A stretch of 24,570 bases of DNA from a virus (Duplodnaviria; Caudoviricetes). Location: positions 1 to 24,570 of the IMG/VR virus record IMGVR_UViG_3300032155_000029; one strand, 5' to 3'. The stretch's first letter is position 1, and every line of letters starts with the position of its first letter. A program made the position numbers and the translations under genes. Below are positions 923 through 17,615 of the stretch, one piece after another. The notes beneath the pieces were generated by a model. It worked only from the letters and a program-made list of their open reading frames with translations, had not been told where the DNA came from and did not search any database.

Positions 923-931
923 GTGCGCCCC

Positions 932-1987: not shown

Positions 1988-2002
1988 GGGGCCTCCGTGC
2001 TC

Positions 2003-3111: not shown

Positions 3112-4232
3112 TACCCGTTCTCCCCGTTAAGGATCCTCTGTTGCTCTTCCTTGGACAGCTGTTTTGCGTCGCCCAGCAAGTCGCCGTCGCCCTTCTTTTC
3201 CTTCTTCAGCTTCTTCTCGAATTCCTGGGCAAAGGCGCTGGGGCTGCGCAGGGTAAGCTGGGTGGTGGTGCCACCGCTGGAAATCTTGTGGACCACGCGC
3301 CCGATCATCAGGTCCTTGTCCACGCGCAGCCAGGGCAGCTGCACCCGGCACATGGCGTTCAGCGGCCAGAGCGTGCCGTCTCCCTGGCGCCAGCCCTGCA
3401 CGGTGACGTCAACAGAGGCACTGCGACCGGCGCGCACGCTGGCTTCCCACTCCGCCCGGCGCTGGGCCGTGGCCGCATCCTTGGGGGCCTCGCCACTGAT
3501 GATGTGCGGGCGGTACCGGCCAAGTACAGGGTCCTTGGCGGTGGCCACCACGGCGGCCACCTTGTCGCCGCTCTCGGTATCGCTGCCCTTGTTCTGGGCG
3601 AGCACGCGGTACTCCGAAAATCTGTCCTTGGCGTCGTAGGTGGCCGATGCCTCCAGGATGTTCTGCCCCTGCACCAGCGCGCCGAACGCCCTGCTGCATC
3701 CGATGGACACCAGCACGATGCCACCGGCCGCATCCGGCATGGCCATCAGCTCGCGCTGGCGCAGGGCACGTTCCAGGCATTCCCACGCGGTTTCGCCCGG
3801 CTCCACCTTGTGCGTGGGGATGGGCGCGCCCTCGTTGCCTTCGCACCGCACCTTCACCCCAAAGGGCGCGGCAAGGATGCTGGCAAGGCGGCTGACGGTG
3901 ATGGACTTCCATTCGCCCGGCTTGTGGATGGCGGCGCAGTCCACCAGGTCCGCGCTGGCATCGCGCCCGGCCACGGTGATGGCGTGCGCGCCAGCCCCGA
4001 AGGACGGGTTGGCCGAATCAATCCACCCCTTGATCAGGGTGTCCGATCCTGCCTTGATGACGCAGGCCATGCCCGGCGCGATGGGCAATGCCGTGGCCCC
4101 ATGCGCCCAGCGGTCGGAAAGCCGCAGGGAAAAGGCTCCGGACACGGCGTCTACGGCGCGTGTTACGGACACGTCTTCCCAGCCTTCCCAGCGCACGCCG
4201 TCAATTTCCAGCGTCACGATTTCGCTAGGCAT
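3111..4232 (-). CDS. Baseplate hub protein, Mu gp44 (gpP)-like
   Basis: Start reassigned to ATG 4232 (ATGCCTAG overlap with upstream stop), 373 aa; GWEDVSVTR, GRDASADLVDC, GQNILEA, RFSEY, VQGWRQ motifs. Confidence 0.93.
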   Translation of the reverse strand: MPSEIVTLEIDGVRWEGWEDVSVTRAVDAVSGAFSLRLSDRWAHGATALPIAPGMACVIKAGSDTLIKGWIDSANPSFGAGAHAITVAGRDASADLVDCAAIHKPGEWKSITVSRLASILAAPFGVKVRCEGNEGAPIPTHKVEPGETAWECLERALRQRELMAMPDAAGGIVLVSIGCSRAFGALVQGQNILEASATYDAKDRFSEYRVLAQNKGSDTESGDKVAAVVATAKDPVLGRYRPHIISGEAPKDAATAQRRAEWEASVRAGRSASVDVTVQGWRQGDGTLWPLNAMCRVQLPWLRVDKDLMIGRVVHKISSGGTTTQLTLRSPSAFAQEFEKKLKKEKKGDGDLLGDAKQLSKEEQQRILNGENG

Positions 4233-5442
4233 TGCGCAGCACCTCCAGTTGGCCGGGCGGCACAAAGCCGGGGTGGCGCACGCGGTTGCGCGCAAGGATC
4301 TCCGTTTCCACGTCGGGCGCGTCCCGGTCGGCCACGGTGCGATGGGCAACCACCAGCGACGGGGCGACAGTGGATTGCCGGACGGTCACGACATCCGGCG
4401 CGCTGCCCGCGCTGTCCGTCAGGGCCTTTACCGTGGCGGCCTGAAGGTCGGTAAAGCTGGCATACACTCCATCGTCCGTGGCGCCATCGAGCACGGCATC
4501 CACCGCGTCGGTCACGCCCTCGCGCAGGGTGGCGGCATCCGCCCGCGATGCGGGGGCGGACAGCGCGGCGGAGCGCGCGGCCTCTGCCGTGGCGGCCCGG
4601 CGCTGGTAGTCCGCAATGGCCTGGGCGTTTTCCGCCGCCGTGGTGCGCATGGTGCCCGCGCCTTCCGGCACGGTGACGGTGGGGGTGGACGCGGCAAGGA
4701 ACAGCATGTCGTTGGCGCGGCGGGTGTGGCCAGCCCCGGTAAGATCGTCGCGCACGGCATAGGCGATGAGCGGGCGCAGCAGAGAGGATGGCAGCCACTC
4801 CGCGATCTCTTCCGGCAGCATGCTGGTCACCATGTCCACATGGTCGGCCCATCCTTCCGGGGTTGCGCCAGCGGTGGCCCCCTGTTGGGCAGACACGGCA
4901 ACCTCGCGGGCCACCTTCATGGTAGCGGCAAGCACGGGGTGGGGCTGGCCCTTGAGGCGGACCCGTCTGTTCACGTCCGCGTCCGCCTCGTCCAGGGCGT
5001 TGTCCGCCCGCAACCCTGCCTGCGCGCCGGGCTTGGCGGATCCGGAGGGGCTGGCCGCCTCGCCTGCCTCGCTAAAGGTAAGACTGAAGGTAGCCATGCC
5101 GCCGCCGGACTTGCTTTCGCGCACGCGGCAGCCGGTGCACACCACCAGCACCTCGCCAGCCCACGGCGTGACCAGGCGTCCGGGGCCTTCCTCTTCGCAG
5201 GCCTTCAGCAGGGCATCGCGCGCGGGCATGTAGTCCGGCCCCAGCACGTAGGCTTCCACGCCGTAGCTGCGGGCCTTGCGGCCAAGGTCTTCGGTATAGG
5301 GCACATCGCGCCCAGGAAATTCATGGGTGACTGCGCGGCGCCCGGTTTCCCGGTCGCTGGTGTCCACCTTGAAGCCAACGCCCCGGAACGACGCGGCGCG
5401 CAGGCTGCGCCGCCAGGCGGCATCGGTGCTCTTGCTGGCCAT
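4225..5442 (-). CDS. DNA circularization / tail-tube initiator protein, Mu gp43 (gpN)-like
   Basis: Start reassigned to ATG 5442 (AGGAG upstream), 405 aa; ASFRGVGF, GRRAVTHEFPGRD, EDLGR, C-terminal RNRVRHPGFVP. Confidence 0.92.
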   Translation of the reverse strand: MASKSTDAAWRRSLRAASFRGVGFKVDTSDRETGRRAVTHEFPGRDVPYTEDLGRKARSYGVEAYVLGPDYMPARDALLKACEEEGPGRLVTPWAGEVLVVCTGCRVRESKSGGGMATFSLTFSEAGEAASPSGSAKPGAQAGLRADNALDEADADVNRRVRLKGQPHPVLAATMKVAREVAVSAQQGATAGATPEGWADHVDMVTSMLPEEIAEWLPSSLLRPLIAYAVRDDLTGAGHTRRANDMLFLAASTPTVTVPEGAGTMRTTAAENAQAIADYQRRAATAEAARSAALSAPASRADAATLREGVTDAVDAVLDGATDDGVYASFTDLQAATVKALTDSAGSAPDVVTVRQSTVAPSLVVAHRTVADRDAPDVETEILARNRVRHPGFVPPGQLEVLRNA

Positions 5443-5452
5443 GCGCGTGCTC

Positions 5453-7045
5453 CTAGTGGGCGGGGGCGGCAAGGCCCATGTAGGTTATGTCCGTTTCCAC
5501 CGGCTCACCGGTCTGGCGCACCTCTGTCCCGCGCGGTACGTTCTCCATCTTGATGGTGACGGTGGACTGCTTTTCCTGCCGCTCCAACGACTGGAAGCGT
5601 TGTTCCTGCACCCGGCGCATGGTTTCGCCAGCGCCAAGGCTGGGGCGGGCGGCAAGGGCTGGTGCGCCCTCGCCCTCCTGCGACGGCGACGACGCGCCCG
5701 CAGGGGCGAACACGCCCTTTTGCGCGGCGAAGAAATCGCCCACGGCGGATGCACCGTTCACCATCCACTCTGGCAAGGTGTCCTTGGCCCATTTGATGAT
5801 GGCTTCCCACTTCATCCACAGCGCGGTGATGGCGGCCACCAGCCCGCCAATGACCAGCACCACCCACCCAAAGGGGGTGGCCACCAGCGCCAGCGACAGC
5901 TGCAGAAAGGCCGCTGCCAGCCCAAGGATGGGGCCGACAAGCCCGGACATCAACGCGCCCGCCGCAATGGCCAGGTTGTCCCAGCCGCCCAGCAGGTCAG
6001 CCACCCACGCCAGCTTGTCGCCCAGGGTTTGCAGGCCGTCCCAGATAGCGGGCAGCTTTTCCCAGCCCGCATCGAAAAAGCGCACCATTCCCTGGCCTAT
6101 GCTCTTTGCCCAGCGATCCAGACTGCCGTTTTCGGAAAGCTTGTCAGACTCTTCAAGCAGCCCGCCCAGCTTGACCTTCATCCAGTCGAGTACGCCGCCT
6201 CCGCTCATGACCTTGTTTGAAAAACGGCTCCACAGGTCCAAGGAGTTGGACCACATGCCGTTCCATGTTTTGGACTGGGCTTCCATGCCGCCGCCGTACT
6301 TCTCTGCCCAAATCTTCATCAGGGTGGCCTGGATCTGGGCGCGGTCGCTGGCCTTGGCCATCATCTTGGACTGCTTGCCTGCGGCGTCGGTGTATTCGTA
6401 AATGATCTTACCGCCTTCCTTGGCGGCCTTGATGCCGAATTCCTTCAGCCGTTCGTTTTCTCCGGTCACCGCGTCGGCAATGGCCTCCACGGCGGACTCC
6501 AGAGGCTTGCCCATGGATGATGCCGTATCGCCCAGCACCTTCAGCAGGCCGGGCATGGGGTCCATGCCGTAGGCCCGCAGCTTGACGAACGCGTCGGTCA
6601 CCCCGGCCAGTTCGTAGGGGGTCTTGGCGGCGAATTCGCTTATCCAGGCCAGCTGTTCCTTGGCCGCGCCCTTGTCCCCTCGGTTCAGGGTCGTCAAAAT
6701 CGTCTCGAACGTTTCAGCCTGCGATGCCACATCCAAGAACTGGCTCTTGAACGCGTAGGCCGCCACACCCGCCGCAACGGTGGCCTTGGCGGCAAAGTCC
6801 TGGGCTGCCGCCGTGGCCTCGCCGAAGTGGCCGCGCGCGCCGCTGCCGATGGAGGCAAACCGCGACAGGCCGGACAACCCGGCGAACCGCCCGCCCTCCT
6901 TGTTCAGGGCGCCCCACGAATCGTGCATGCGGCGCAGGTTGGCGGTGGACGCCTCCAACCTGTCATTGAACGCCCGGAACGGGGCACTGAATTTGTCCAG
7001 TGCCCCAAGGACGAAAGTGATTCCGGTTTCGCGCGGCCCAGCCAT
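5453..7045 (-). CDS. Tape measure protein
   Basis: 530 aa, Ala/Gly-rich helical; FAAKTPYEL, GENERLKEFGI tape-measure motifs; hydrophobic segments; follows tail chaperone. Confidence 0.92.
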   Translation of the reverse strand: MAGPRETGITFVLGALDKFSAPFRAFNDRLEASTANLRRMHDSWGALNKEGGRFAGLSGLSRFASIGSGARGHFGEATAAAQDFAAKATVAAGVAAYAFKSQFLDVASQAETFETILTTLNRGDKGAAKEQLAWISEFAAKTPYELAGVTDAFVKLRAYGMDPMPGLLKVLGDTASSMGKPLESAVEAIADAVTGENERLKEFGIKAAKEGGKIIYEYTDAAGKQSKMMAKASDRAQIQATLMKIWAEKYGGGMEAQSKTWNGMWSNSLDLWSRFSNKVMSGGGVLDWMKVKLGGLLEESDKLSENGSLDRWAKSIGQGMVRFFDAGWEKLPAIWDGLQTLGDKLAWVADLLGGWDNLAIAAGALMSGLVGPILGLAAAFLQLSLALVATPFGWVVLVIGGLVAAITALWMKWEAIIKWAKDTLPEWMVNGASAVGDFFAAQKGVFAPAGASSPSQEGEGAPALAARPSLGAGETMRRVQEQRFQSLERQEKQSTVTIKMENVPRGTEVRQTGEPVETDITYMGLAAPAH

Positions 7046-7046
7046 G

Positions 7047-7196
7047 TCAACTCCGTTCGGCGTTCAGCTCGTTTACCCGGTCCAGCCAGAAACGCAGGTC
7101 TTCCGCGTCCATATCCATCAAGTCAACAGGCCCGAAGTGGAAGGCGTCGGCGATTACTCCGACGGCTGTTTCCCAATCGACGGGCCAACCGACAAA
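7047..7196 (-). CDS. -1 frameshift extension of tail chaperone (gpE+E'/gpGT-like); fusion about 130 aa
   Basis: T-TTT-TTG slippery heptamer at 7199-7193 (minus strand); -1 frame reads FVGWPVDWETAVGVIADAFHFGPVDLMDMDAEDLRFWLDRV, matching the GpE' pattern (IA..FH..P..L..M...L..W); ends 2 nt before tape-measure ATG. Confidence 0.85.
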   Translation of the reverse strand, partial: FVGWPVDWETAVGVIADAFHFGPVDLMDMDAEDLRFWLDRVNELNAERS

Positions 7197-7438
7197 AAAC
7201 CATTCGTGATGGCCATGGCCTCGAACAGGTCCTCGCTCTCCAGTTCGCCCATTATCGACGGCGGCTGGTTGCACAGGCGGCCACCCACCATGAGGATGTG
7301 CTCCATGCACATGGCGTTTCCGCCGATGGGCACGCCCTTCATATGCTTGCCCTTCAGCGGCCCCTGGAACACCAGTTCCGTGATGGCCGTCTCGCCGCTG
7401 CCCACGGGGTGCTTCAGTTTGAGGATCTTGGGTTCCAT
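7154..7438 (-). CDS. Tail assembly chaperone (Mu gp41 / P2 gpE-like)
   Basis: 94 aa between tube and tape measure; LKLKHPV...ITEL pattern; contains slippery site near the 3' end. Confidence 0.85.
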   Translation of the reverse strand: MEPKILKLKHPVGSGETAITELVFQGPLKGKHMKGVPIGGNAMCMEHILMVGGRLCNQPPSIMGELESEDLFEAMAITNGFLSVGPSIGKQPSE

Positions 7439-7442
7439 GCGC

Positions 7443-7808
7443 CTACACCTCCTCTGCGGTCTTGCCTTCGAACCGCGCTGCTACTTCGCCTTCCTTGGTC
7501 TTCACGCTGCCTTCGCCCGCGTACCAGGCGTCCCGCAGGGTGATGGTCTTGCCGTTGTTCAGCTCCAGCGTGACGGTCACCCCGTCCAGCGTCTGGAAGG
7601 TCTTCAGCGAAAGGTCGGACCGGTCGGTGATGGCCCCTTCGATGAACGCCACCTGAACCTCTTCCGAGTAGCCGTGCACGCTGTCTGCCCCCACGATGGC
7701 CGTGCGCTTGGGCAGCCCGAGATTGTAGGTGAATTCGCCCTTGGCTTCCTGAAGCGCACCGTCGATCTTGAAGTAGATGATGCCCGCGCGGCGGTTCGGC
7801 GTTGTCAT
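7443..7808 (-). CDS. Tail tube protein, Mu gpM-like
   Basis: 121 aa; RAGIIYFKIDG, GADSVHGYSE, TLELNNGK, FEG motifs; AGGAGG RBS; follows sheath. Confidence 0.93.
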   Translation of the reverse strand: MTTPNRRAGIIYFKIDGALQEAKGEFTYNLGLPKRTAIVGADSVHGYSEEVQVAFIEGAITDRSDLSLKTFQTLDGVTVTLELNNGKTITLRDAWYAGEGSVKTKEGEVAARFEGKTAEEV

Positions 7809-7832
7809 ATGTGGTCCCTCCTATCTGGCGGG

Positions 7833-9296
7833 CTAGAGGATGAACTGGAACTTCGCGGCGCCCACCACGAACTGGTTGACCAGGTCGGGCGGCAGCAGCC
7901 AGTCCAGGCGGTTGCGGTCGCTGGCGTTGCGCTCGCACACCACGTTGGCCGCGAACAGGTCCACGTTTTCGACAAGGCCCAGCTCTTCCCACACGCGGGC
8001 GCGGGCCACGGCCTCCGCCTTGCCGATTTTCGGCGTGATGATGGGCTGCCCCACACCGAAGTTGTTTTTGTCATCTGCCAGCTTGTGGCGCGGGTACTTG
8101 CGCATCATGTAATTGCGGAAATCATAGCGCAGGTAGCCAAGCGTCAGAGGGGTCATAACGTCGAGGTAGCTGGGATCTTCCGCGCCGCTGGGGCTGGTCT
8201 TGTAGGTGGTGATCATGCGCTGCATGCGTACCGTGCCCCCGGAATCCACGTAGACGGTGGATATGCCGTCGTAGAGCAACAGGTTGTTTTCCTGCAGCGT
8301 GAAGCGGTCGGCACGGGTCGGCGCCAGAATTCCGTTCATGGGCAGGGTCTGGAACGGACGTGCAGGGTCGATGTTGCCGTAGTAGGCGGCAACGGCGGCA
8401 GCAGCGGCAGCCACTTCCCAGAGGGGATTGGGAATGCCGTGCACATGCGAAATGCACAGATGCGGGCTGTTGCGGCTGTCGCCCAGGGTGCCCAGCGCAC
8501 CGTGGCTGCCGGTTGCCGCTGCAACTGCCACGCCCTCGATCATGCGCAGCGGCCCCCAACGGTCGGCAAGTTCGGCCTCGATGGCCGCAAGGTTGGCCCC
8601 GTCGGTCCACGGCCACACGATGACGTTGTAGTGATCGTCACCCATGGCGGCGATGATGGGTGCCGCGTCCGGGTTTGCCGTGCCCCCGGCCATGGTCGCG
8701 ATGGTAACGCCCAGCCCGGCGGGGGTGGATTCGCCGTAGTAGTTGATCCGCACGTCCAGCCCGTTGGATGCCAGGCCCTTGTGCCGGGCGGTCAGGGTGA
8801 CCACGGCCCCGGCTGCGGCAGCCGTGCACGGGCAATCGTCCTTGGCGTTGACGGCGGCGGCAAGGGCGGTGGCCACGGCGCTGGCCTGCTGGCCCGCCGT
8901 CACGCCGCAGGAAACGGCGCGCCCGCCCACGTACAGCACCAGGGTACCGCCCTCGGTGGCGGCCCCGGTAAGGGTAACCGTGCCGGTGGCCGCCTGCCCG
9001 GCGGCGTTGTCCTCCACGGGCACGGCCCACAGTTCGGTCATGGCATCGCCCAGCAGATAGGTCGCGCAAATCTGCGCCAGCATGCTGGCCGCGCCGAACA
9101 GGGTGCGGGCCTGTGCCGCGCTGGTGATGCGCACGGGAGTGAGCGGCGTGGCGGTGCCGGTGTCCAACATCTGCCCGCAGGCCAAGGTTGTGTACGGCAT
9201 GAGCGCGGCGCCGCTGACCGCGTTGGAGTTGTCGAATTCCGCGTACAGGAACGGCACGCGCAGGTTGCGCGGCGTCTGGTTGAAACTGATGGTCAT
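7833..9296 (-). CDS. Contractile tail sheath protein, Mu gpL-like
   Basis: 487 aa; LRVPFLYAEFDNS, DPARPFQTL, NNLLLYDGIST, RMITTY, YPRHKLADD, PPDLVNQ motifs. Confidence 0.96.
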   Translation of the reverse strand: MTISFNQTPRNLRVPFLYAEFDNSNAVSGAALMPYTTLACGQMLDTGTATPLTPVRITSAAQARTLFGAASMLAQICATYLLGDAMTELWAVPVEDNAAGQAATGTVTLTGAATEGGTLVLYVGGRAVSCGVTAGQQASAVATALAAAVNAKDDCPCTAAAAGAVVTLTARHKGLASNGLDVRINYYGESTPAGLGVTIATMAGGTANPDAAPIIAAMGDDHYNVIVWPWTDGANLAAIEAELADRWGPLRMIEGVAVAAATGSHGALGTLGDSRNSPHLCISHVHGIPNPLWEVAAAAAAVAAYYGNIDPARPFQTLPMNGILAPTRADRFTLQENNLLLYDGISTVYVDSGGTVRMQRMITTYKTSPSGAEDPSYLDVMTPLTLGYLRYDFRNYMMRKYPRHKLADDKNNFGVGQPIITPKIGKAEAVARARVWEELGLVENVDLFAANVVCERNASDRNRLDWLLPPDLVNQFVVGAAKFQFIL

Positions 9297-9299
9297 GGC

Positions 9300-9500
9300 T
9301 TACTCCTTGGCGGGCTTGGCCTGCTTGGCCGTGGGCTTGCTGGTGGTCACGTCGCCCTCGTTGATGCGCCGCAGCCAGTAGGTGGTGCGGACCACGGCCA
9401 GCCCTTCGTCGGGCACGTGCTGCAAGGTCTGCGGGTCGCGCACCTTGGGGCCGTCGGGCACGGGGTACACCGTGATCATTTCGGGGGCGGGCTTGGCCAT
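9300..9500 (-). CDS. Small tail protein, Mu gp38/DUF2635-like
   Basis: Start reassigned to ATG 9500 (AGGAG upstream), 66 aa; VRDP...VPDEG..V..TTYWLRRINEGDV; directly upstream of sheath. Confidence 0.88.
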   Translation of the reverse strand: MAKPAPEMITVYPVPDGPKVRDPQTLQHVPDEGLAVVRTTYWLRRINEGDVTTSKPTAKQAKPAKE

Positions 9501-9502
9501 GG

Positions 9503-10027
9503 TCACTCCTGTTCGGGATGGATGGTATCTTCGGCGTCGGTCACGCCGTCCGGCGGGGCCAGGTCCCAGCGCACCCCGCCGGTTGCAAAGTCGTCCAGGT
9601 CGGGCTGCTGGCGGGCGCGCTCGTACCACACGCCCGCATCCACGCGGGCGCAGCCGACAAGTTCGTCGCCCTTTTCGGCCAGCGAAATTTCGATGCCGCG
9701 CATCTCCAGATCCTGCACCAGACCGCCAAGGGTGGGGTCTGCCAGCAGGCAGTCTTCCACTGCGTCGGCCAGCTCGTTGAGCGTGGCGTCCATCCCTTCG
9801 CCGCTGGCCACCACTTCCACGGAAAGGGTCAGGTCGCGGGTGTAGCGGGGGGGCGAGGTGCCTTCGTCGTCCAGGGTTTCCTTCAGCCCGTACACGCCGA
9901 TGGCGGGCAGGCGCGCACTCTGGATGTGCCGCACCCGGCTGGGGTACACGCGCCCCTCGACGGCGGGCAGCGCGGCGCGCAGCATGGCGGCCACGGCGGT
10001 GACGATCTGCTGGCGGGTGGCCGTCAT
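9503..10027 (-). CDS. Tail terminator / tail completion protein (lambda gpU / Mu gp37 position)
   Basis: Start reassigned to ATG 10027 (ATGA overlap), 174 aa; RVYPSRV..LPAIGVY, ADPTLGGLV motifs typical of tail terminators. Confidence 0.78.
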   Translation of the reverse strand: MTATRQQIVTAVAAMLRAALPAVEGRVYPSRVRHIQSARLPAIGVYGLKETLDDEGTSPPRYTRDLTLSVEVVASGEGMDATLNELADAVEDCLLADPTLGGLVQDLEMRGIEISLAEKGDELVGCARVDAGVWYERARQQPDLDDFATGGVRWDLAPPDGVTDAEDTIHPEQE

Positions 10028-10350
10028 GCGGGCCTCCGGTGCAGGCGCACCTCCCACATGTTGGGATGCTTGGCCGTCACCTCTGCCACGGTGTATTCCT
10101 TGTCATCGAACAGCACGCGGTCTTCTTCAATTACAGGTTCTTGCCGCAACGAATCACGCAACACGGTCACAGTAATGGAGCTGCTGCTCACCTGCATGTA
10201 CTCGCCCGCGTCCACCAGTTGCTCGCCCTCGCGCCAGATGCCGCGCACGGTGATGGGGTCACCGTCCAGGGGAACGAAGGTCACCGGGTCGGCAAAGCCC
10301 CCGGCGAATATCCGCGCCGCGTCGGCGCGTACACGTGCGCGCAGGCTCAT
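10024..10350 (-). CDS. Head-tail joining / head closure protein (gpFII-like)
   Basis: 108 aa beta-rich (FADPVTF, ITVRGIW, DRVLFDDKEYTV); ATGA overlaps on both sides; neck position. Confidence 0.7.
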   Translation of the reverse strand: MSLRARVRADAARIFAGGFADPVTFVPLDGDPITVRGIWREGEQLVDAGEYMQVSSSSITVTVLRDSLRQEPVIEEDRVLFDDKEYTVAEVTAKHPNMWEVRLHRRPA

Positions 10351-10934
10351 ACGGCAAGCTCCTTGGACAGCAGGTAATTTGCTTCGGCCAGGACGCGGGT
10401 GCGGAACACGTCTTCCGCCCTGGTCTGCTGGGCGGCGATCACTTCCGGCTTACCGAAGTAGGCGAGGAAGGACGGCCCATACAGGCGGCGGATGGGCGTG
10501 CGCTTGGCGGTCTGGCGGGCGTAGACCTCGCCCTTGGCGATGAACACGCCGGGCAGCTTCTGGCCGTCCAGGCTGACCACCCGCTTGCGCCCGCCGCCCT
10601 TGCGGATGAGCACGGTGACGCCCTTCTTGGTCTGGCGCGCCCCCCAGCGGATAAGCGGGATGGACATTTTGCCCCGCGCGTAGAGGATGGCCACCTTGTA
10701 AGCGCGGGTGGCCTTGCGCACGTACATGGTGTCCCGCACGTCGCGAGCGGGCGCGGCGTATTCGGCGCGGATGGCTCTGGACACCTCGTCGCGGGTGGCG
10801 GTGACGGCCCGGTTAAGGGCACGCACCACCACCAGGTCCATCCCGCGAGGGATGGACCCCACCCGACTGGCCAGTTCGCCCAGCACCTGGGCGGCGTGAT
10901 GGCTGTCGAGACGGACGAGGCGCTTGTCTGCCAT
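10347..10934 (-). CDS. Minor tail / neck protein, lambda gpZ-like
   Basis: 195 aa, very basic; RALNRAVTATR, FIA...VYAR..KRTPIRRLYGPS pattern. Confidence 0.82.
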   Translation of the reverse strand: MADKRLVRLDSHHAAQVLGELASRVGSIPRGMDLVVVRALNRAVTATRDEVSRAIRAEYAAPARDVRDTMYVRKATRAYKVAILYARGKMSIPLIRWGARQTKKGVTVLIRKGGGRKRVVSLDGQKLPGVFIAKGEVYARQTAKRTPIRRLYGPSFLAYFGKPEVIAAQQTRAEDVFRTRVLAEANYLLSKELAV

Positions 10935-10938
10935 GGGG

Positions 10939-11130
10939 TTAGTCCTTGCTGTCGCTGGCGGGGGTCAGGTCGGGCATGTCGCGCAGGTCCTGGGTGGCCG
11001 CTTCGTATTCCTCGATGGTGGGCAGGGTGTAGCCGCCCTGCTCCGCGCACAGGCGCTGGGCCATTTCGGCGGCGGTCAGGCCAAGGCGCAGGCCGGATTC
11101 GATGAGGGCGATGAGTTCCACGGGCGTCAT
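10939..11130 (-). CDS. Hypothetical protein (63 aa), last gene of lysis cassette
   Basis: AAGGAG upstream; amphipathic N-terminal helix, acidic C-terminus; fills the gap in the operon. Confidence 0.7.
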   Translation of the reverse strand: MTPVELIALIESGLRLGLTAAEMAQRLCAEQGGYTLPTIEEYEAATQDLRDMPDLTPASDSKD

Positions 11131-11132
11131 GG

Positions 11133-11732
11133 TCAGCGCTCCTTGAAGGCCGCGAGCAACGCCGCGGCGTCACCAAGCAGGCGCATGGCGTTGGTTTTCA
11201 GGGCCAGCCAGTCGCCCGGCTCGGTCTGGGTGCGGGCGTACGCGCCCGCCCCTTCGCGCAGGGCGATGACGGCCAGCTTGGCCTTGTCCAGCAGCGGGGC
11301 CACGTCGGCCTCCAGCATGGGCCGGGCATCGGGCAGGGCCGCGTGCAGCTGCTCATACTCCTGGTGCAGGGCCACGTAGGTGATGCGCAGTTCCTCGCCC
11401 ACGGCCATGGCCTGCTCGTGCGGCTGCATGCCCTTCAGCGCGCAGCCGGAACTGACGGCCAGCACCGGCAGCAGCAGTGCGAGCAGCAACAGGGTCTTGG
11501 CCCCCTTCACGGTCACGGGCTTGATGGTGGTCTTGGCCTTGATGCGGCCCCAGATGGTCAGGCCACCGGCAATGGCCGCGCCGATGCCCAAGGCCGCGTC
11601 CACCAGCTGGGTCTGCATGTCGGCGTCAAGGCTGATGCCGCACAGGGCCAGCACGGCCACCAGCAGGGAGACAATGCCCCCCCACACGGTGCGCGAGGCC
11701 AGCAGCGGCTTTACGGTGTCGGTGTCAAACAT
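11133..11732 (-). CDS. Putative holin-like 2-TM domain fused to a lipoprotein (possible spanin-type function)
   Basis: Start reassigned to ATG 11732 (AAAGGGAG RBS), 199 aa; KPLLASRTVWGG-TM1...TM2-IWGRIKA, then basic linker, hydrophobic LLLLALLLPVLAV and lipobox-like SSG-C97, then a helical domain. Confidence 0.65.
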   Translation of the reverse strand: MFDTDTVKPLLASRTVWGGIVSLLVAVLALCGISLDADMQTQLVDAALGIGAAIAGGLTIWGRIKAKTTIKPVTVKGAKTLLLLALLLPVLAVSSGCALKGMQPHEQAMAVGEELRITYVALHQEYEQLHAALPDARPMLEADVAPLLDKAKLAVIALREGAGAYARTQTEPGDWLALKTNAMRLLGDAAALLAAFKER

Positions 11733-11752
11733 GGGTGCTCCCTTTGGCCCGG

Positions 11753-12247
11753 TTACGCGGGCCACGTGCCGCCAAGGGCCTTCAGCACCTTGGCCGGGTA
11801 TTCGGGGTTGGAGTAGTTATTGTGGCCCTTCACCGCGCCCGCGCCGCCGTTGTACGCGGCGCACACGGCGGACCACCCGAACGCCGCCTTGTACTTGGCG
11901 GCGAAGGCGGCCAGATGCTTGCAGCCGATGTCCAGCCCGGTGGCCGGGTCGCACAGTTCGGTGAGGTAGGCCCCCTTGAAGCCCCGCTCGCGAGCCACCT
12001 GGCCCATCACCTGGAGCAGACCAAAGGAGGTGGCGCGCAGGCGGCGTTCGGTATCCAGCGAGCAGGGGGAAACGGCCTTCACGTCGGGGTTCTTTTCGAC
12101 GTAGCGGGCGTAGAAGCCCGGTTCAAAACGGGTTGCCCAAGGATTGTCGGTACTTTCCACCCGCACCATGGCCGCCACCAGTTCGGGCGGCAGGCCATGG
12201 CGGGTGGCCGCGTCGTTGATCAGTTGGGTGAGCTGTTTGGGGTCCAT
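11753..12247 (-). CDS. Endolysin, SLT-family lytic transglycosylase
   Basis: Start at ATG 12247 (AAGGAG 5 nt upstream), 164 aa; catalytic VES, SFGLLQVM, AYNGG motifs; no signal or SAR segment. Confidence 0.93.
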   Translation of the reverse strand: MDPKQLTQLINDAATRHGLPPELVAAMVRVESTDNPWATRFEPGFYARYVEKNPDVKAVSPCSLDTERRLRATSFGLLQVMGQVARERGFKGAYLTELCDPATGLDIGCKHLAAFAAKYKAAFGWSAVCAAYNGGAGAVKGHNNYSNPEYPAKVLKALGGTWPA

Positions 12248-12249
12248 GG

Positions 12250-12519
12250 TCACTCCTTGTCGTCGGCGCGGGTGTTCAGGATTTGCGCCTGGATGTCCTT
12301 GGGTATGTCGCTGTGGACAACAAGGGCGCGGAGCATGCGGAACAGGATGTTGAGCTTCGAGCTGACGGCGTCGAACGTATCCTCGCTGGCGTCATGCCGC
12401 AGGCGGCATTGTTCGCGTGGCACGAACTTGCTGCCCAGCCAGATGCGCACGGACACGGCGGTGAGCGCGGAGATGAACGCCGTCAGCAGCAGCAGTTCCA
12501 GCGGGGTGAACGTCAGCAT
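12250..12519 (-). CDS. Single-TM membrane protein, probable lysis accessory or holin-like
   Basis: 89 aa; N-terminal TM (LELLLLTAFISALTAVSVRIWL) and soluble helical C-terminus; immediately upstream of endolysin. Confidence 0.6.
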   Translation of the reverse strand: MLTFTPLELLLLTAFISALTAVSVRIWLGSKFVPREQCRLRHDASEDTFDAVSSKLNILFRMLRALVVHSDIPKDIQAQILNTRADDKE

Positions 12520-12534
12520 GCCGCGCCCCCTGCC

Positions 12535-12894
12535 CTAGCCCTGACCGGTGGTCCCGGCATCCCCGGCGGCCTGTTCGGCACCGGCCTTACCGTCGTCCTT
12601 GGCGGATTCCGCCGGGGATGCCGGAGCCGCCGGGGCGGCAGGCTTGGACTTGTCGGCCATGCGGGCGGCAAGGGCGGCCTGCGGGCTGGCATCGCCGCCA
12701 ACCTCGCCCACCTCGGCAACCTTCGTGGCCGCAGGGTCCACGTACAGCTCGGCAGACTTGCCGGTGATCAGACGTTGCGCCTCCTCGGCGAACACGGAGA
12801 CGACGGAGCCGGGCTTGTGCACGGTGCGCACGCCCTTGGCGTCGCGATCCCACAGTTCGCCCAGCAGACGGACGCGTACTTTCTTGGCAGCCAT
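12535..12894 (-). CDS. Hypothetical head accessory protein (lambda gpFI-like position)
   Basis: 119 aa directly after capsid; compact N-terminal domain (PGSVVSVFAEEAQRLI) plus Ala/Pro-rich disordered tail. Confidence 0.65.
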   Translation of the reverse strand: MAAKKVRVRLLGELWDRDAKGVRTVHKPGSVVSVFAEEAQRLITGKSAELYVDPAATKVAEVGEVGGDASPQAALAARMADKSKPAAPAAPASPAESAKDDGKAGAEQAAGDAGTTGQG

Positions 12895-12904
12895 GTCACC
12901 CCCC

Positions 12905-13921
12905 TTACGCGAGGACCACAGCCGTCACGACGGATGCGGGCTGGAAGATGACGGGCAGCGGGTTGGTTTCACCCAGCATCCACAGGCTGGACGGCTCGTC
13001 CTCGATGAACATCTTGACGAAGTACTCCGCTTGCACGCCAGCGATGCCCGCCGCCAGGTCTTCGATCAGCCCGAATTCCAGCACGGCCTTGGCCTTGGTG
13101 GAGTACAGGGCAATCTTGTTGACCGGCCAGATTTCCTGCACCACGTCGTTCTCGTCCAGGAAGGTTCCGCCGTAGCGGTACAGTTGCAGGCCTTTGTAGT
13201 AGCCGACGTAATCAGCCCCGAATTCCGGAGCCAGCAGGCCCACTTCCATCCTCTTGTTGTCCAGTTGCTTCTGGATCTTCGGGTGGCTGGAGAAGCGGGA
13301 AGAAGCGCTGGTGCCCATGATCATGACGTCCGGGCTGAAACCGGTCTGGTCCTTGGCCTTCTTGGTCCAGGATTCGACCTGTTCGTCGATGTCGCTGGCG
13401 TCGTCGGACCACAGGTCGCCGCCGGTCAGCGTCACCTTGTTCCCGGCGGGCATGCCGTAGTCGTAGACAAGCCCCAGGTCGTCGATGGTCATGGACCCCT
13501 GCAGGATGTCCGCGCAGGCCTTTTCGATGGTCAGGTCCAGCCGCGCGCGCATGTCCTGCAGCTCGGTGGCCAGGTTCTTTTCTGCGGCCATTTCGGCGGT
13601 CTGCCCGCCCACCAGGTACGGCATGAACCCTGCGGGTCGGCTGAGCAGCTTCTTGGGGTCCATCTGCTTCTTGGGCCGCAGCTTGGGAAATTCCAGCCAC
13701 GTTGCCGACTTGCGGGTGTTTTCGATGATCGTGCCGCCCCGCACGGCGGTGGTGTAGGGCACAATCTTGTTCTTGTACTTTTCCTTGTCGAACTGGAGGA
13801 TCGTTACAGGGTTGGTGTTGCGGTCCTTGAACAGGGTCTTCTGGAGCAGGCCGGGCATGCCAGGCATTTCGGCAATGGCCTCGGTCAGGTACTGGAAATC
13901 CCAGGGTCCGGGATTGGGCAT
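12905..13921 (-). CDS. Major capsid protein, lambda gpE-like
   Basis: 338 aa after decoration protein; YDYGMP, LTGGDLWSD, EDEPS...ETNPLPV motifs. Confidence 0.93.
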   Translation of the reverse strand: MPNPGPWDFQYLTEAIAEMPGMPGLLQKTLFKDRNTNPVTILQFDKEKYKNKIVPYTTAVRGGTIIENTRKSATWLEFPKLRPKKQMDPKKLLSRPAGFMPYLVGGQTAEMAAEKNLATELQDMRARLDLTIEKACADILQGSMTIDDLGLVYDYGMPAGNKVTLTGGDLWSDDASDIDEQVESWTKKAKDQTGFSPDVMIMGTSASSRFSSHPKIQKQLDNKRMEVGLLAPEFGADYVGYYKGLQLYRYGGTFLDENDVVQEIWPVNKIALYSTKAKAVLEFGLIEDLAAGIAGVQAEYFVKMFIEDEPSSLWMLGETNPLPVIFQPASVVTAVVLA

Positions 13922-13930
13922 GGCGGCCTC

Positions 13931-14320
13931 CTACGCGGGCTGCTTGAGGGTGACGTAAATGCCCGCATCGCGCAGGGCGGCGATGGCGGCGGCCTTCTGG
14001 GGGGCGGTGATACCGCCCGGCCAGGTCAGACCCCGGTCCAGCACGGTGCCGTGCACGTAGCCGCGCGAAACGGCATCGCCAGCGGCGGGCACGGTGGTGT
14101 CTTCGGCCAGGATGTGGGTGGGGGTCTGGCTGCCGTCGGACGCGCCGGGGGCCAGCTTGACCTGCTTGCCGCTGGCGGTGACGGTGGACAGCACCGTACC
14201 GGCGGGCATGTCCGCCAGCGTGCCGGTGGACGCCAGGGTGATCACTTCCAGCACGGGCGGGTGCGCGCCCAGAAAGGGGATGAAGGCGTATTCTTCGGTG
14301 GTGACGGCGGGAATCGCCAT
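13931..14320 (-). CDS. Head decoration protein, lambda gpD-like
   Basis: 129 aa; AGTVL, ASDGSQTPTHILAED, LTWP, LRDAGIY motifs; AGGAGG RBS. Confidence 0.88.
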   Translation of the reverse strand: MAIPAVTTEEYAFIPFLGAHPPVLEVITLASTGTLADMPAGTVLSTVTASGKQVKLAPGASDGSQTPTHILAEDTTVPAAGDAVSRGYVHGTVLDRGLTWPGGITAPQKAAAIAALRDAGIYVTLKQPA

Positions 14321-14332
14321 GGCGACCTCCTG

Positions 14333-14785
14333 TTAGCTGACCAGCGCGGCAAGGCGCTTGCCGAACTGGGCGGGGGTTTCGGCGCCGGGCTTGCCGGGGG
14401 CACCGGCCAAGGGGGCGGCGTGGGCGGTGGTCAGCCCTTCCAGAATCCTGTCCGCCTCGGACTTGGCCACGGTGGCCTTGGGTTCGGCGGGGGGCGTGCC
14501 CTCCTGCTGGCCTTCGGCGGCGGCATCGGCCTTCGGGGGCGCGGGCATCAGCCCGGCCACGGCGGCAATCTGCGCGGCGGTCAGGTTCTGCTCCAGCAGG
14601 GCCTGCACGCGGGTGGCCGCTTCTTCGCCAGCCGTAGCGCGCACGGCGGCAACGCAGGCCTCGGTGCGGTCCTTCAGCTGGGCGGCGTGTTGCGTGGCGG
14701 CCTGGGCCGTGGCCTGTTCGGCGGCCTCGCGGGTGATGGACGCCAGCACTTCCGGGTGCTGGGCGGCAAGGGTCGCCTTGTCCAT
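14333..14785 (-). CDS. Nested in-frame scaffolding protein (lambda Nu3-like), 150 aa
   Basis: Internal ATG at 14785 preceded by AAAGGAGA 5 nt upstream, at the end of the protease domain; product MDKATLAAQHPEVL... is Ala/Glu/Gln-rich helical. Confidence 0.75.
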   Translation of the reverse strand: MDKATLAAQHPEVLASITREAAEQATAQAATQHAAQLKDRTEACVAAVRATAGEEAATRVQALLEQNLTAAQIAAVAGLMPAPPKADAAAEGQQEGTPPAEPKATVAKSEADRILEGLTTAHAAPLAGAPGKPGAETPAQFGKRLAALVS

Positions 14786-15691
14786 GGTTGTCTCCTTTGC
14801 AAGGGTTGCGATGGCCGTTTCCAGGTCGGCCACTATGGCGGTGACGAGGCCCTGCGGGGCTGCGGACGCGATGAAGATTTGCCCATCGGCCCACGTGCCC
14901 AGGGCCGCGACGTCCAGCCCCATGCCGGACGCCACCCCGTCGATGAAATGTTGGTACAGGGTATCCAGTCGCGCCTGGATGTAGGCGCGCTCCTGGTCGG
15001 TGAGCGGGTTGTCTTCGTTGCCCACGGCCTTCCATTTGCCTGCGGTAAGGTAGGCGTAGGAGACGCCCATCTTTTCGTTCCAACCCGCATAGTTGGGCAA
15101 AACGCTGATGATGCCGATGGACCCCACGGACGCGGTGGCCGGCGCGAACACCCGCCCGGTGGCCGCGCCCATGGAATAGGCGGCGCTGGCCATGGTGCCG
15201 TTGGCGTACGCGGCCATGGGCTTGCCCGATGCCTTGCCCGCGCTGGCGATGTAGTCGGACAGCTCTTTCATTCCCGCGACCGTTCCGCCGGGGCTGTTGA
15301 TGTCCAGCAGCACCGCGCCCACGGCGTTGTCCGCCAGGGCGGCGGCAATGGCCGGGCGAATCTGGTTGAGCATGCCGGTGGCGACCAGTTCGCCCCACCA
15401 GGTGCGGACGGCGAACTGCGACAGCACGCCCCGGATGGAGATGACAGCAACGCCGTTGACCACCGCGTACGGCTTGTCCTGCAGCACATCGCCCCCCATG
15501 GCGAAGGCGGCGTGCGGAGTGAACCCTCCGGCGGGCGGCAAGGCGGACTCGCCGGAGGGTTCGTGCCGCGCCAGCTTGTCGGGGGGGCTGGCGGGCCGGG
15601 AAAGGACCATGCCGCGCACGTGCGACAAAAACGGGGCAAGGGCGTCGGGCTGGATAGCCCACAGGCGCTCGGCAAACAGGCTATTGGGCAT
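14333..15691 (-). CDS. Prohead protease, S49 (SppA/ClpP-like; lambda gpC-type) with C-terminal scaffold region
   Basis: Start reassigned to ATG 15691 (AGGAG upstream), 452 aa; LLDINSPGG, MASAAY, VGSIGI, AGKWK, FIDGVASG motifs. Confidence 0.94.
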   Translation of the reverse strand: MPNSLFAERLWAIQPDALAPFLSHVRGMVLSRPASPPDKLARHEPSGESALPPAGGFTPHAAFAMGGDVLQDKPYAVVNGVAVISIRGVLSQFAVRTWWGELVATGMLNQIRPAIAAALADNAVGAVLLDINSPGGTVAGMKELSDYIASAGKASGKPMAAYANGTMASAAYSMGAATGRVFAPATASVGSIGIISVLPNYAGWNEKMGVSYAYLTAGKWKAVGNEDNPLTDQERAYIQARLDTLYQHFIDGVASGMGLDVAALGTWADGQIFIASAAPQGLVTAIVADLETAIATLAKETTMDKATLAAQHPEVLASITREAAEQATAQAATQHAAQLKDRTEACVAAVRATAGEEAATRVQALLEQNLTAAQIAAVAGLMPAPPKADAAAEGQQEGTPPAEPKATVAKSEADRILEGLTTAHAAPLAGAPGKPGAETPAQFGKRLAALVS

Positions 15692-17360
15692 GGCCCTGCT
15701 CCTGCGTTTGGGCGGGGGGATCGGAGGGATACGGCCCGCGCTGGGCGGTTGCCCCGGTGCGCGAGTTGATGCGTTCGGCCAGCTCCGGCGCAAGGCGGTG
15801 CAGCATGCGGTCTTCGTGGCCGCGCAGAGCCCAGACGTCTTCTACGTCCAGCCCGCGTTCGCCCAGGATTTCGCTGTACGTGGCAAGGCCGTTGTCCAGC
15901 ATGGTGATGGCCGCATCGGCTTCCTTCACCGGGTCCACGTAGCCGCGACCAGGGCCGATCCAGTTGGCCGCCGTCCAAAGGGGCAGCGCCTCGTAAAAGC
16001 CGGGGGCGTTGGGGGGCAGCTTGATGTAGCCGCGCAAAAAGGCTTCTTCCTGCACCATGCGCCAGATGGGCTGGCAGTAGCTGCGGGCCTGCCACTGGCG
16101 CCACATCATGTACACGCGCCACGCTTCCAGCAGGGCGGCGCGGGCGGAGCTGTAGTTGGTCTTGGAAAAGTCTTTCAGTACGGCTTCGTAGGGCAGGCCC
16201 GCGCTAGCGCCCATGGCGCGCACGATGAAGGTAACGAAGCTGTTCCAGTTTGCGCCGGGCCTGTCGCTGGAAAGGACTTTGGCGTCTTCGCCCTCGTTGG
16301 TGTAGAGCACCTGGCCGGGGGCGTATGACTGGTGGTAGATCGGCTCCCTGCCGTCACCCGGCCCCCCCTGCGGTCCCTGCACGCCCCCGCCGTTGCGGAA
16401 GAAGGCGTCCATGTCGTCGGTGCTGCCGCCCTTGCGCCCGCTGGAGAACACCAGCGGAAACGACGCGGCGACGATCTGGCCTATCAGCTCGTATTCCAGG
16501 CTGTCGGCAAGGTGGCGGAACAGCTTCAGCGCGGGGGTGATGACGGGTTCGCCCCGGTACTGCTCCTCGCTGGTATGGCGGAAGCAGTGGAACAAGCCGA
16601 CGCGGTGGCCCACGCGGTACGGCAGGCGGCGAAAGCTGCCAGACCCCAGCGCGTCCCACCCGTGCATGCCGGTGAACAGGCTGGGGTTCGGCTCCGCGAT
16701 CCAGCCCGCATAGCGGCGCCCGTGGGCGTCCAGTTCCACGCCGTCGCGGAAGTTGGACTGCCCGCGCTTGTCGGCGGGGGTGCACATGCGTTGCGAGTGC
16801 ACCGGCTGGATGCGCAGGCCAAGGAAGCCGCCGTCGCTGGCCGGGTCCACCATCACCGGCACCTGCACCATTTCACCGTGGACGATGGCGGAGTGCATGC
16901 CCATGTACTGAAGGTCGGCAAACGGCTGGCCGTCGTATCCGGCCCGCTCGGACCACAGCCACCAGACATCTTCCATGGCGTTGCCGATCTCGCGGGCCAG
17001 GTCCTCGTCAATGCCCAACATCTTTGCCGGGATGCACGCGGACGGCATCAGGCCGTTGGCCCCCACCGCGTTGAGCGTGATGTTGCTGACGAGGGACGAG
17101 GCGGCCCAGTCGTTGGCGGTAAGGTCTTCGCTACGGGTGGAGGCAACCTGCCGTTCGCGCCACATGGTGGCGGGCGCCGGGCGGCCTGGCAGCCAGTTGG
17201 CCAGCGCACCCCGGAAGGACCCGGCATCGCGGGAAACGCGCGGCACCACCCCCGGTACAACAGGGCCGCCCGCGCGCATGGCGGGCATTTGGCCTGCCAT
17301 CTGGCGCGCACGGCGCATGTTGGCGTGGGGGATGGGGCGCGCGGCGCGGGGCATGGCCAT
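15681..17360 (-). CDS. Portal protein, lambda family
   Basis: 559 aa; RSEDLTAND, DGVELDAHGR, QYRGEP, DFSKTNYSSARAALLE, WIGPGRGYVDPVKE motifs. Confidence 0.96.
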   Translation of the reverse strand: MAMPRAARPIPHANMRRARQMAGQMPAMRAGGPVVPGVVPRVSRDAGSFRGALANWLPGRPAPATMWRERQVASTRSEDLTANDWAASSLVSNITLNAVGANGLMPSACIPAKMLGIDEDLAREIGNAMEDVWWLWSERAGYDGQPFADLQYMGMHSAIVHGEMVQVPVMVDPASDGGFLGLRIQPVHSQRMCTPADKRGQSNFRDGVELDAHGRRYAGWIAEPNPSLFTGMHGWDALGSGSFRRLPYRVGHRVGLFHCFRHTSEEQYRGEPVITPALKLFRHLADSLEYELIGQIVAASFPLVFSSGRKGGSTDDMDAFFRNGGGVQGPQGGPGDGREPIYHQSYAPGQVLYTNEGEDAKVLSSDRPGANWNSFVTFIVRAMGASAGLPYEAVLKDFSKTNYSSARAALLEAWRVYMMWRQWQARSYCQPIWRMVQEEAFLRGYIKLPPNAPGFYEALPLWTAANWIGPGRGYVDPVKEADAAITMLDNGLATYSEILGERGLDVEDVWALRGHEDRMLHRLAPELAERINSRTGATAQRGPYPSDPPAQTQEQGHAQ

Positions 17361-17363
17361 GGG

Positions 17364-17615
17364 CTACCACCGCCCCCGCAGGATGACGGGGCGAACGGCC
17401 ACGGGGCCAGGGCGGCGCGGCCTGCCGGACTGTTCGGCCAGCAGCTTGTTGCGCTCCGCCTCCAGGTAGGCCAGCTGGTCCTGGATGTCCTGCAGCGAGT
17501 AGTGAGAGACGGACTGGCCGCCCACGGAATAGAAGCGTCCGGTGGCTACTGCATTGAGAGCCTCCTTCCACGACGCGATCAGCGCGTCCAATTCGGTAAG
17601 CGTCCAGATAGACAT
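17364..17615 (-). CDS. Head completion / head-tail adaptor, lambda gpW-like
   Basis: 83 aa directly before portal; helix-hairpin-helix pattern ALNAVATGRFYSVGGQSV...L..LEAE. Confidence 0.8.
   Translation of the reverse strand: MSIWTLTELDALIASWKEALNAVATGRFYSVGGQSVSHYSLQDIQDQLAYLEAERNKLLAEQSGRPRRPGPVAVRPVILRGRW

What the first reader, a model, noticed from the sequence alone, without database searches (positions are those of the whole stretch)
11133..11732. Holin-like domain fused to an internal lipoprotein signal: a possible self-splitting holin/spanin polyprotein
Seen: residues 8-66 form a 2-TM unit (KPLLASRTVWGG...LTIWGRIKA) like small stand-alone phage holin-type proteins. A Lys-rich linker (RIKAKTTIKPVTVKGAK), hydrophobic h-region and lipobox-like VSSG-C97 (Cys codon 11444-11442) follow, then about 100 aa of amphipathic helices. 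There is no stop between the parts and no clear RBS before the internal GTGs. Established: lipoprotein signals are normally N-terminal; u-spanins have the reverse layout (N-terminal lipobox, C-terminal TM). Inference: Lgt/SPase II processing at Cys97 would release a lipoprotein and leave a 3-TM inner-membrane protein, giving two lysis functions from one gene.
Basis: partly seen in the sequence, partly recalled or inferred. Interest (0 to 1): 0.72.

Follow-up and report, generated by a model that had tools for sequence, protein, structure and literature searches.

The report
Holin–lipoprotein fusion in phage lysis cassette
A virus of sulfate-reducing bacteria carries one gene that joins a small holin-family membrane unit to a lipoprotein which related viruses encode as a separate gene; host enzymes would likely cut it in two, and the freed lipoprotein is predicted to pair with a small neighbouring protein that likely helps break the outer membrane, a layout that searches for N-terminal signals would miss.

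Summary
Confirmed. The 199-aa ORF (11732-11133, minus strand) follows an SLT endolysin in a probable Nitratidesulfovibrio phage. It is a 2-TM unit (PHROG holin match), a basic linker, an h-region, the lipobox SSG-C97 and a three-helix domain X.

The fusion is conserved: Cys97 is invariant in 14/14 aligned homologues (29-93% identity), and 37/37 fused 50%-clusters keep a lipobox.

Both halves also occur unfused. The 2-TM unit stands alone, often before ordinary overlapped spanins. X stands alone as a classical lipoprotein, and is also fused to an unrelated small membrane unit. No conserved internal start was found.

New here: a 63-aa downstream gene follows X in 26/31 loci and is predicted to bind it (ipSAE 0.65, best control 0.02). 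The internal lipobox is the only credible one in this contig and in a 44.8-kb relative.

Best reading: Lgt/LspA split the precursor, and X plus partner replace spanins. Lipidation, cleavage, holin and spanin activity are untested. A second holin lies nearby in several relatives, and one distant X sits beside normal spanins. The scan noted a similar architecture on another genome (e1-5873197).

The parts
11133..11732 (-). fusion ORF, 199 aa (P0001)
   Evidence: conserved as one frame in relatives
11738..11744 (-). Shine-Dalgarno-like AAGGGAG, 5 nt before the ATG
   Evidence: sequence
11523..11714 (-). 2-TM holin-family unit ('A-unit', aa7-70; TM1 about 15-33, TM2 about 43-61)
   Evidence: hydropathy; 9 of 11 family members match phrog_34682 (holin), best E 2.4e-8, window E 0.0038; stand-alone ~70-aa forms L017-L024
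11496..11549 (-). basic linker (aa62-79), inferred n-region; variable in length between relatives
   Evidence: 6 K/R, 0 D/E; the stretch Cys-35..-13 is net positive in 37 of 37 fused clusters; alignment
11442..11495 (-). h-region and lipobox SSG-C97 (Cys codon 11444-11442)
   Evidence: Cys invariant in 14 of 14; lipobox in 37 of 37 fused clusters
11136..11444 (-). predicted mature lipoprotein, domain X (aa97-199), three-helix bundle
   Evidence: AF2 helices 104-132, 134-168, 175-198, block pLDDT 79-96; free-standing lipoprotein homologues
10939..11130 (-). 63-aa partner gene: amphipathic N-terminal helix, C-terminal helix ending P-D-L
   Evidence: follows X in 26 of 31 loci; predicted to bind X; no PHROG match in 20 of 20 members
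11753..12253 (-). SLT-family transglycosylase, probable endolysin, no evident signal
   Evidence: PF01464 E 2.3e-13
12250..12519 (-). 89-aa protein with one N-terminal hydrophobic segment, upstream of the endolysin; unassigned
   Evidence: max KD18 2.08; no Pfam or PHROG match at E<0.01

Best explanation
The gene is an in-frame fusion of a two-helix holin-family membrane unit to a complete lipoprotein precursor; host Lgt and LspA would likely lipidate and cut it at Cys97, and the released lipoprotein is predicted to bind the 63-aa product of the next gene and likely stands in for the spanins. SHOWN: one frame; position after the endolysin; both halves exist as separate genes in relatives; the lipobox is kept; the partner gene is linked. 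INFERRED steps: (1) TM1-TM2 insert N-in/C-in; (2) the basic linker and third helix act as an internal Sec signal; (3) Lgt/LspA process Cys97; (4) Lol carries X to the outer membrane (no Asp at +2); (5) the leftover 2- or 3-TM piece acts as a holin or holin accessory; (6) after SLT removes the wall, the partner's C-terminal helix docks on X as a fourth helix, and its N-terminal amphipathic segment engages the inner membrane, giving a two-component spanin in reversed gene order and with reversed sizes. The fusion likely arose by a one-base change at a stop/start overlap and is tolerated because cleavage would separate the parts again.
For: Cys97 is invariant in 14 of 14 full-length homologues at 29-93% identity. 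Of the top 150 of 403 representative hits, 37 are A-unit+X (37/37 with lipobox), 55 A-unit alone and 12 X alone with an N-terminal signal. In genomes, X stands alone with an MR/MK-h-lipobox signal after a separate small membrane gene, in 5 of 6 such loci with a 1-nt stop/start overlap (L047, 48, 49, 51, 55). That small unit (phrog_9685 in L048, L049, L055) is fused to X in L045 and P0133. No conserved internal start: L005 has no in-frame ATG/GTG/TTG from Cys-45 to Cys-12; Met followed by K/R occurs in 3 of 37 fused against 10 of 12 free forms. No Asp at Cys+1 in 37 fused or 12 free forms. Same slot as spanins: 5 of 8 stand-alone A-unit loci are followed by an overlapped lipobox gene, and 3 of 3 tested match phrog_8971 Rz-like spanin. 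Among 26 X+partner loci only 3 had any other filter hit within 1.3 kb, none spanin-like. The internal lipobox is the only credible one in the window and in 44,786-bp G002. Complex: ipSAE 0.65 against best control 0.02; the mark was reached by 116 of 157 solved and 2 of 215 mismatched pairs; runs share at least 48% of contacts; partner pLDDT at least 60; partner contacts lie mainly in residues 34-57, leaving its N-terminal helix largely free. The combined periplasmic length of about 140 aa lies within the 62-300 range of two-component spanins (PMC6139136 section 8).
Against: No experiment: processing of a lipobox at residue 97 behind two TMs is untested, and 9 literature searches gave no precedent. 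X (0 of 26) and partner (0 of 20) match no PHROG family, spanins included. The partner lacks a clear TM in the window (max KD18 1.32; family 0.71-2.02) and is net negative in 20 of 20, so its route to the periplasm is unexplained. L056, a weak X homologue (E 2e-6) without partner, sits directly before a conventional i-/o-spanin pair. Five of 31 X loci lack the partner. A second holin lies nearby in relatives (LydA-like PF16083 in L005, L006, L010; PF05105 in L023). In L005-L011 and L042 no endolysin was seen within about 1.5 kb upstream. The A-unit is also fused to non-lysis-looking exported domains (SNase in P0158, DUF350 in P0067). The window is a fragment and G002 is 83% complete, so spanins elsewhere are not excluded. 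The representative search used a profile containing the h-region and Cys, which favours lipobox-bearing hits.
Confidence: 0.5

Rival explanations
1. The precursor is processed as above, but X and its partner are not spanins: they are an accessory envelope pair (lysis regulator, exclusion or Bor-like factor), and the 2-TM unit is an antiholin or accessory, or just a tolerated long leader.
For: L056 has an X-like lipoprotein beside normal spanins. Second holins lie near the A-unit in L005, L006, L010 and L023. The A-unit is fused to 25 other lipoprotein domains and to non-lipobox exported domains. No spanin-family match.
Against: X+partner occupy the slot held by overlapped spanins in stand-alone A-unit loci. 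No other credible lipobox in the window or G002.
Confidence: 0.27
2. The protein is not cleaved (lipidated or not): it stays a 3-TM inner-membrane protein with a periplasmic three-helix domain, acting as a holin with a regulatory domain or as an i-spanin-like tether, and the Cys is inherited or used for disulphide dimers.
For: Lipoprotein signals are described as always N-terminal (PMC6139136 section 8). Spanin cysteines form intermolecular disulphides (PMC6139136 abstract). The -3 residue is non-canonical Ser in the window.
Against: The whole lipobox is kept, not only the Cys: G/A at -1 in 37 of 37 (the filter allowed G/A/S) and L at -3 in 16 of 37, like free forms. The same domain is an ordinary lipoprotein when free. 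Without cleavage these phages would have no detected outer-membrane anchor.
Confidence: 0.14
3. The lipoprotein is made mainly from an internal start inside the fused frame (nested in-frame genes), so no polyprotein processing is needed.
For: GTG73 is in frame in the window, L001 and L002, and GTG/ATG75 in the window and L001; L045 keeps a Met at Cys-27 followed by Lys.
Against: Only AAG upstream of GTG73 and GTG75; L005 has no candidate start; L006, L007, L009 and L011 have none with both a ribosome site and a basic n-region; Met+K/R in 3 of 37 fused clusters.
Confidence: 0.08
4. The fusion is an assembly error or a one-off read-through of two neighbouring genes.
For: Unfused neighbours overlap by one base in relatives, so one indel joins them.
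Against: Fused in 37 clusters at 50% identity, in an isolate genome (L002) and in an independent contig.
Confidence: 0.01

Closest known systems
Two-component spanins (lambda Rz/Rz1; separated architecture, T4 PseT.3/PseT.2; PMC6139136)
   Same: Lysis-cassette position; a lipobox-bearing subunit plus a second small protein whose C-terminal helix is predicted to bind it; helical; total periplasmic length in range.
   Different: The lipobox is internal, behind a 2-TM unit. The lipoprotein gene comes first and is the larger subunit. The partner has no clear type II TM. No sequence match to spanin PHROGs.
Unimolecular spanin (T1 gp11)
   Same: One gene carries both a lipobox and TM segments.
   Different: Reverse order: the TMs precede the lipobox and would be cut off; X has no C-terminal TM and is helical rather than beta-rich (PMC9636201 passage).
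Class II (2-TM) holins and pinholins such as phage 21 S21 (features recalled); PHROG 34682
   Same: About 70 aa, two TMs, basic C-tail, next to endolysins.
   Different: Family untested experimentally as far as I found; here extended by a signal and a lipoprotein; coexists with other holins in some relatives.
Bacteriocin release protein of pCloDF13
   Same: A lysis lipoprotein whose cleaved signal peptide is stable and functional (reference titles only, seen in PMC5727409).
   Different: There the signal is an ordinary N-terminal peptide; here the leftover is a whole 2-TM protein family that also exists as its own gene.
Disruptin gp28 of phiKT (bioRxiv 10.1101/515445, search listing only)
   Same: Small protein replacing spanins; amphipathic-helix character recalled.
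   Different: gp28 is cationic; the 63-aa partner is net negative in 20 of 20 and linked to a lipoprotein.

Membership tests
Bacterial lipoprotein (Sec/SPII) | Basic n-region, h-region and lipobox Cys, conserved | tested here: met
Bacterial lipoprotein (Sec/SPII) | Signal at the N-terminus | tested here: not met
   Cys at residue 97 with no conserved internal start; met in free homologues
Bacterial lipoprotein (Sec/SPII) | Lipidation and LspA cleavage | not testable with these tools
   needs labelling or globomycin; SignalP/LipoP not available
Holin | Small TM protein in a lysis cassette, related to annotated holins | tested here: met
   phrog_34682 in 9 of 11 members; adjacent SLT; Pfam holin hits only weak and below cut-off
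Holin | Timed permeabilisation of the inner membrane | not testable with these tools
   no assay; second holins in relatives
Two-component spanin | Outer-membrane lipoprotein subunit | tested here: inconclusive
   lipobox kept and no Asp at +2; processing and sorting untested
Two-component spanin | Linked i-spanin with an N-terminal TM (type II) | tested here: inconclusive
   linked partner in 26 of 31 loci but KD18 only 1.32; the i-spanin-like genes of the overlapped pairs in the same family score 0.93-2.14
Two-component spanin | Subunits bind through the partner's C-terminal region | tested here: inconclusive
   prediction only: ipSAE 0.65 vs control 0.02
Two-component spanin | Sequence relation to known spanin families | tested here: inconclusive
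   0 of 26 and 0 of 20 PHROG matches; spanins are extremely diverse (PMC6139136 abstract)
Two-component spanin | Required for outer-membrane disruption | not testable with these tools
   needs complementation or knockout
u-spanin | N-terminal lipobox plus C-terminal TM | tested here: not met
   no KD19 peak above 1.5 after aa81

The most novel reading that the evidence does not exclude
A third spanin architecture made as a host-processed polyprotein. Lgt/LspA cut a holin-lipoprotein precursor at an internal lipobox, fixing the holin to o-spanin ratio at 1:1. The partner is a signal-less cytoplasmic protein that reaches the periplasm only through the holin lesion, then docks on the outer-membrane lipoprotein and drives membrane fusion. 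The same trick (holin as leader of a cleavable exported protein) recurs across dozens of phage lineages and could account for some 'spanin-less' phages.
Probability: 0.22. Interest if true: 0.88.

Novelty: new variant of a known kind. Interest (0 to 1): 0.66.

Why it matters
Spanin surveys and lipoprotein predictors assume an N-terminal signal (PMC6139136 sections 8 and 15), and 91 of 677 surveyed genomes had no spanin. An internal lipobox behind a holin would be invisible to them. If processed, it would show that bacterial Lgt/LspA can act on a polytopic precursor, a bacterial counterpart of viral polyprotein cleavage by signal peptidase. Natural fused and unfused versions of the same domain, plus a predicted two-protein interface, make this directly testable in E. 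coli with lambda lysis mutants.

Tried and rejected
Family scans: Pfam on P0001 gave 0 families. PHROGs on the C-half gave 0; a weak Rz-like hit (phrog_4306, E 0.2) covers only the signal and was not used.

Homologue searches: the word-indexed searches found only 6, 6 and 10 proteins. GenBank phages gave no match for P0001 or L017 and one weak partial match for L045. Domain X was found only in the centre genome G001 among 401 genomes drawn from the phylum: not found in those searched, not absent. ESM Atlas returned unnamed, mostly viral clusters (0.94 and 0.92 whole protein; under 0.9 for aa78-199), leads only.

Fold searches: PDB Foldseek had no hit at E<=0.001; BFVD had one, an uncharacterised 120-aa marine virus protein; VIA-align's best was Z 12.0 to a designed three-helix bundle, a generic fold, and the gp41 row was not taken as evidence.

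Tree: the X tree is a quick tree on 111 columns with 37 of 70 inner branches open; it suggests repeated switching but does not date or order events, and some 'free' metagenome proteins may be mis-started.

Rows dropped as false positives: L025, L027 and L059. In one search the Cys pick for P0104 was wrong. P0022, P0104 and P0105 look like diverged A-units and P0045 like a mis-started free form, so 7 of the 11 'other N-part' rows were taken as the second unit.

Reads: no raw RNA reads were available to test starts.

Literature searches without a precedent: (open-access PMC and bioRxiv only). The SpaninDB supplement was not read and could hold a similar entry.

Full report
Setting. The window is a 24,570-bp virus record. 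On the minus strand it carries a lambda-type head module (portal, S49 peptidase, decoration protein, capsid E) and a Mu-like contractile tail. Between capsid and head-tail genes lies a four-gene block: an 89-aa one-TM protein (12250-12519), an SLT transglycosylase (11753-12253, PF01464), the finding (11133-11732) and a 63-aa ORF (10939-11130). The same block occurs in viral contig L001 and in a Nitratidesulfovibrio oxamicus contig, L002, at 92% and 90% identity, which points to the host. That this genus belongs to Desulfovibrionaceae is recalled.

Observation. It holds in every detail checked: one frame of 199 aa, a ribosome site before the ATG, three hydrophobic segments, an acidic first loop, a linker with 6 K/R and no D/E, and SSG-C97 at 11444-11442. 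My lipobox filter is passed by 112 of 5000 shuffles of residues 76-105 and by 0 of 50 short relatives. A contig of an independent run spans 11150-11800 with a 9-letter, frame-keeping insertion in the linker.

Conservation. A profile of six close relatives matched 24 of 301 genomes in the family of the L002 host. In 14 full-length fusions at 29-93% identity, Cys97 is invariant while the linker varies in length. I left out L010 as a near copy of L009, and L014, L016, L026 and L031 as other architectures. Against 1.84 billion representatives there were 403 hits. The top 150 sort into 55 A-unit alone, 37 A-unit+X (all 37 with a lipobox), 25 A-unit+lipobox+another domain, 12 free X lipoproteins, 11 other N-part+X, 8 A-unit extensions without a filter hit and 2 fragments. 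The query held the h-region and Cys, so lipobox-bearing classes are favoured, most of all the 25.

Both halves live alone. Stand-alone ~70-aa A-units occur in 8 loci (L017-L024), beside various endolysins in the five whose upstream gene was scanned, and 9 of 11 family members match PHROG 34682, annotated holin. Domain X matched 28 of 401 family genomes. In L047-L049, L051, L052 and L055 it is a separate gene behind a different 55-63-aa membrane gene. Five of these six begin with an ordinary basic-hydrophobic-lipobox signal whose ATG overlaps the upstream stop by one base. That second small unit is itself fused to X in L045 and P0133 (both match phrog_9685, as do the free genes of L048, L049 and L055), and similar units lead X in L014, L031 and L046. 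So X has been joined to at least two unrelated leaders. A quick tree of 73 X domains needs at least 4, 5 and 2 changes for the A-fused, free and second-unit states on well-supported branches, though it is poorly resolved.

Internal start. Among 18 ORFs examined, no start codon position with a ribosome site and basic n-region is shared, and L005 has no candidate at all. Met followed by K/R occurs in 3 of 37 fused against 10 of 12 free proteins. GTG73 is shared by the three closest copies, and L045 keeps a Met at Cys-27, so an internal start is not excluded for each copy.

A partner. The 63-aa gene has relatives directly after X in 26 of 31 loci, fused or free (the profile was built from 20 of them, and the loci are not independent). 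AlphaFold2 models X as three helices with block pLDDT 79-96, while the membrane part is low-confidence. The complex prediction gave ipSAE 0.65 against a best control of 0.02. That mark was reached by 116 of 157 solved and 2 of 215 mismatched pairs, and holds only roughly with my own alignments; runs share at least 48% of contacts and partner pLDDT is at least 60. The partner's C-terminal helix (about 34-57) packs on X and its N-terminal amphipathic helix is mostly free. Five examined orphan copies of the partner have no X or A-unit hit in their loci and have lost the terminal P-D-L.

Is it a spanin? For: 5 of 8 stand-alone A-unit loci are followed by an overlapped gene pair with a lipobox, 3 of 3 tested matching an Rz-like PHROG. 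X+partner loci show no such pair within 1.3 kb (3 of 26 had unrelated filter hits). The internal lipobox is the only credible one in the window and in 44,786-bp G002; the other hit is antisense to the peptidase gene. Against: there is no family match for X or partner. The partner is acidic and lacks a clear TM. L056, a weak X homologue, precedes a normal spanin pair. Five X loci lack the partner, and neither genome is complete.

Is the A-unit the holin? Its family label and position say so. But LydA-like or PF05105 holins lie close by in L005, L006, L010 and L023, and the window has an unassigned one-TM gene. The A-unit is also fused to an SNase and a DUF350 domain behind what look like SPI-type signals (signal type judged by eye). 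This suggests that any exported neighbour can fuse to it, because cleavage would free both. It supports splitting but weakens the idea that the fusion exists to couple two lysis steps.

Mechanism. Most likely (0.5): insertion N-in, Lgt/LspA processing at Cys97, Lol transfer of X (no Asp at +2 in 49 of 49; the rule is recalled from E. coli), holin or accessory function of the leftover, and X plus partner acting as a reversed two-component spanin. All steps after the sequence anatomy are inferred. Rivals: processed but non-spanin accessory pair (0.27), uncleaved 3-TM protein (0.14), internal start (0.08), artefact (0.01).

What is known. PMC6139136 (abstract, passages, sections 8 and 15 read; supplements not read) lists embedded, overlapped, separated and unimolecular spanins, states that localisation signals are always N-terminal, and leaves 91 of 677 genomes without spanins. 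PMC9636201 and PMC9239132 (passages) add no fused form. PMC5727409 (passages) cites, by title, a bacteriocin release protein whose cleaved signal peptide functions on its own. Nine searches of open-access text found no holin-lipoprotein fusion and no internal lipobox; subscription literature was not searched. The scan's own notes hold a similar architecture on another genome (e1-5873197), unchecked here.

Verdict. A real, recurrent gene architecture with natural fused and unfused forms and a newly recognised partner. New variant of a known kind, interest 0.66; higher if internal processing and outer-membrane disruption are shown.

Noticed in passing
L016 (hit ORF) and L026/L058: The A-unit is fused through a lipobox to domains that end in a hydrophobic segment, with no 63-aa partner detected: candidate holin plus u-spanin fusions.
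   Followed up: no
P0158, P0067, P0078, P0103: The A-unit is fused to apparently exported non-lipoprotein domains (SNase PF00565 in P0158, DUF350 in P0067) behind SPI-like signals.
   Followed up: partly
L075-L078, L091: Orphan copies of the partner gene, several per genome in G113, G147, G248, G274 and G286; the five examined have no X nearby and lack the C-terminal P-D-L. In L077 and L078 they follow the zinc-ribbon gene that precedes the fusion elsewhere.
   Followed up: partly
L018:1634-2056, L020:1708-2028, L023:1748-2038: The overlapped o-spanin frames have their lipobox Cys 49-78 residues after the first start codon, and their i-spanin-like partners have amphipathic rather than clear TM N-termini and no PHROG match.
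   Followed up: partly
window 12250-12519 (-): 89-aa one-TM protein upstream of the endolysin, with a similar gene in L018; topology like DUF2730 releasins but no Pfam match.
   Followed up: partly
L028, P0015, P0094, L026: The linker between A-unit and signal expands, putting the Cys at residues 120-210 while the lipobox is kept.
   Followed up: no
window 326-17615 (-): Lambda-type head genes combined with a Mu-like contractile tail; the lysis block sits between capsid and head-tail connector genes.
   Followed up: no
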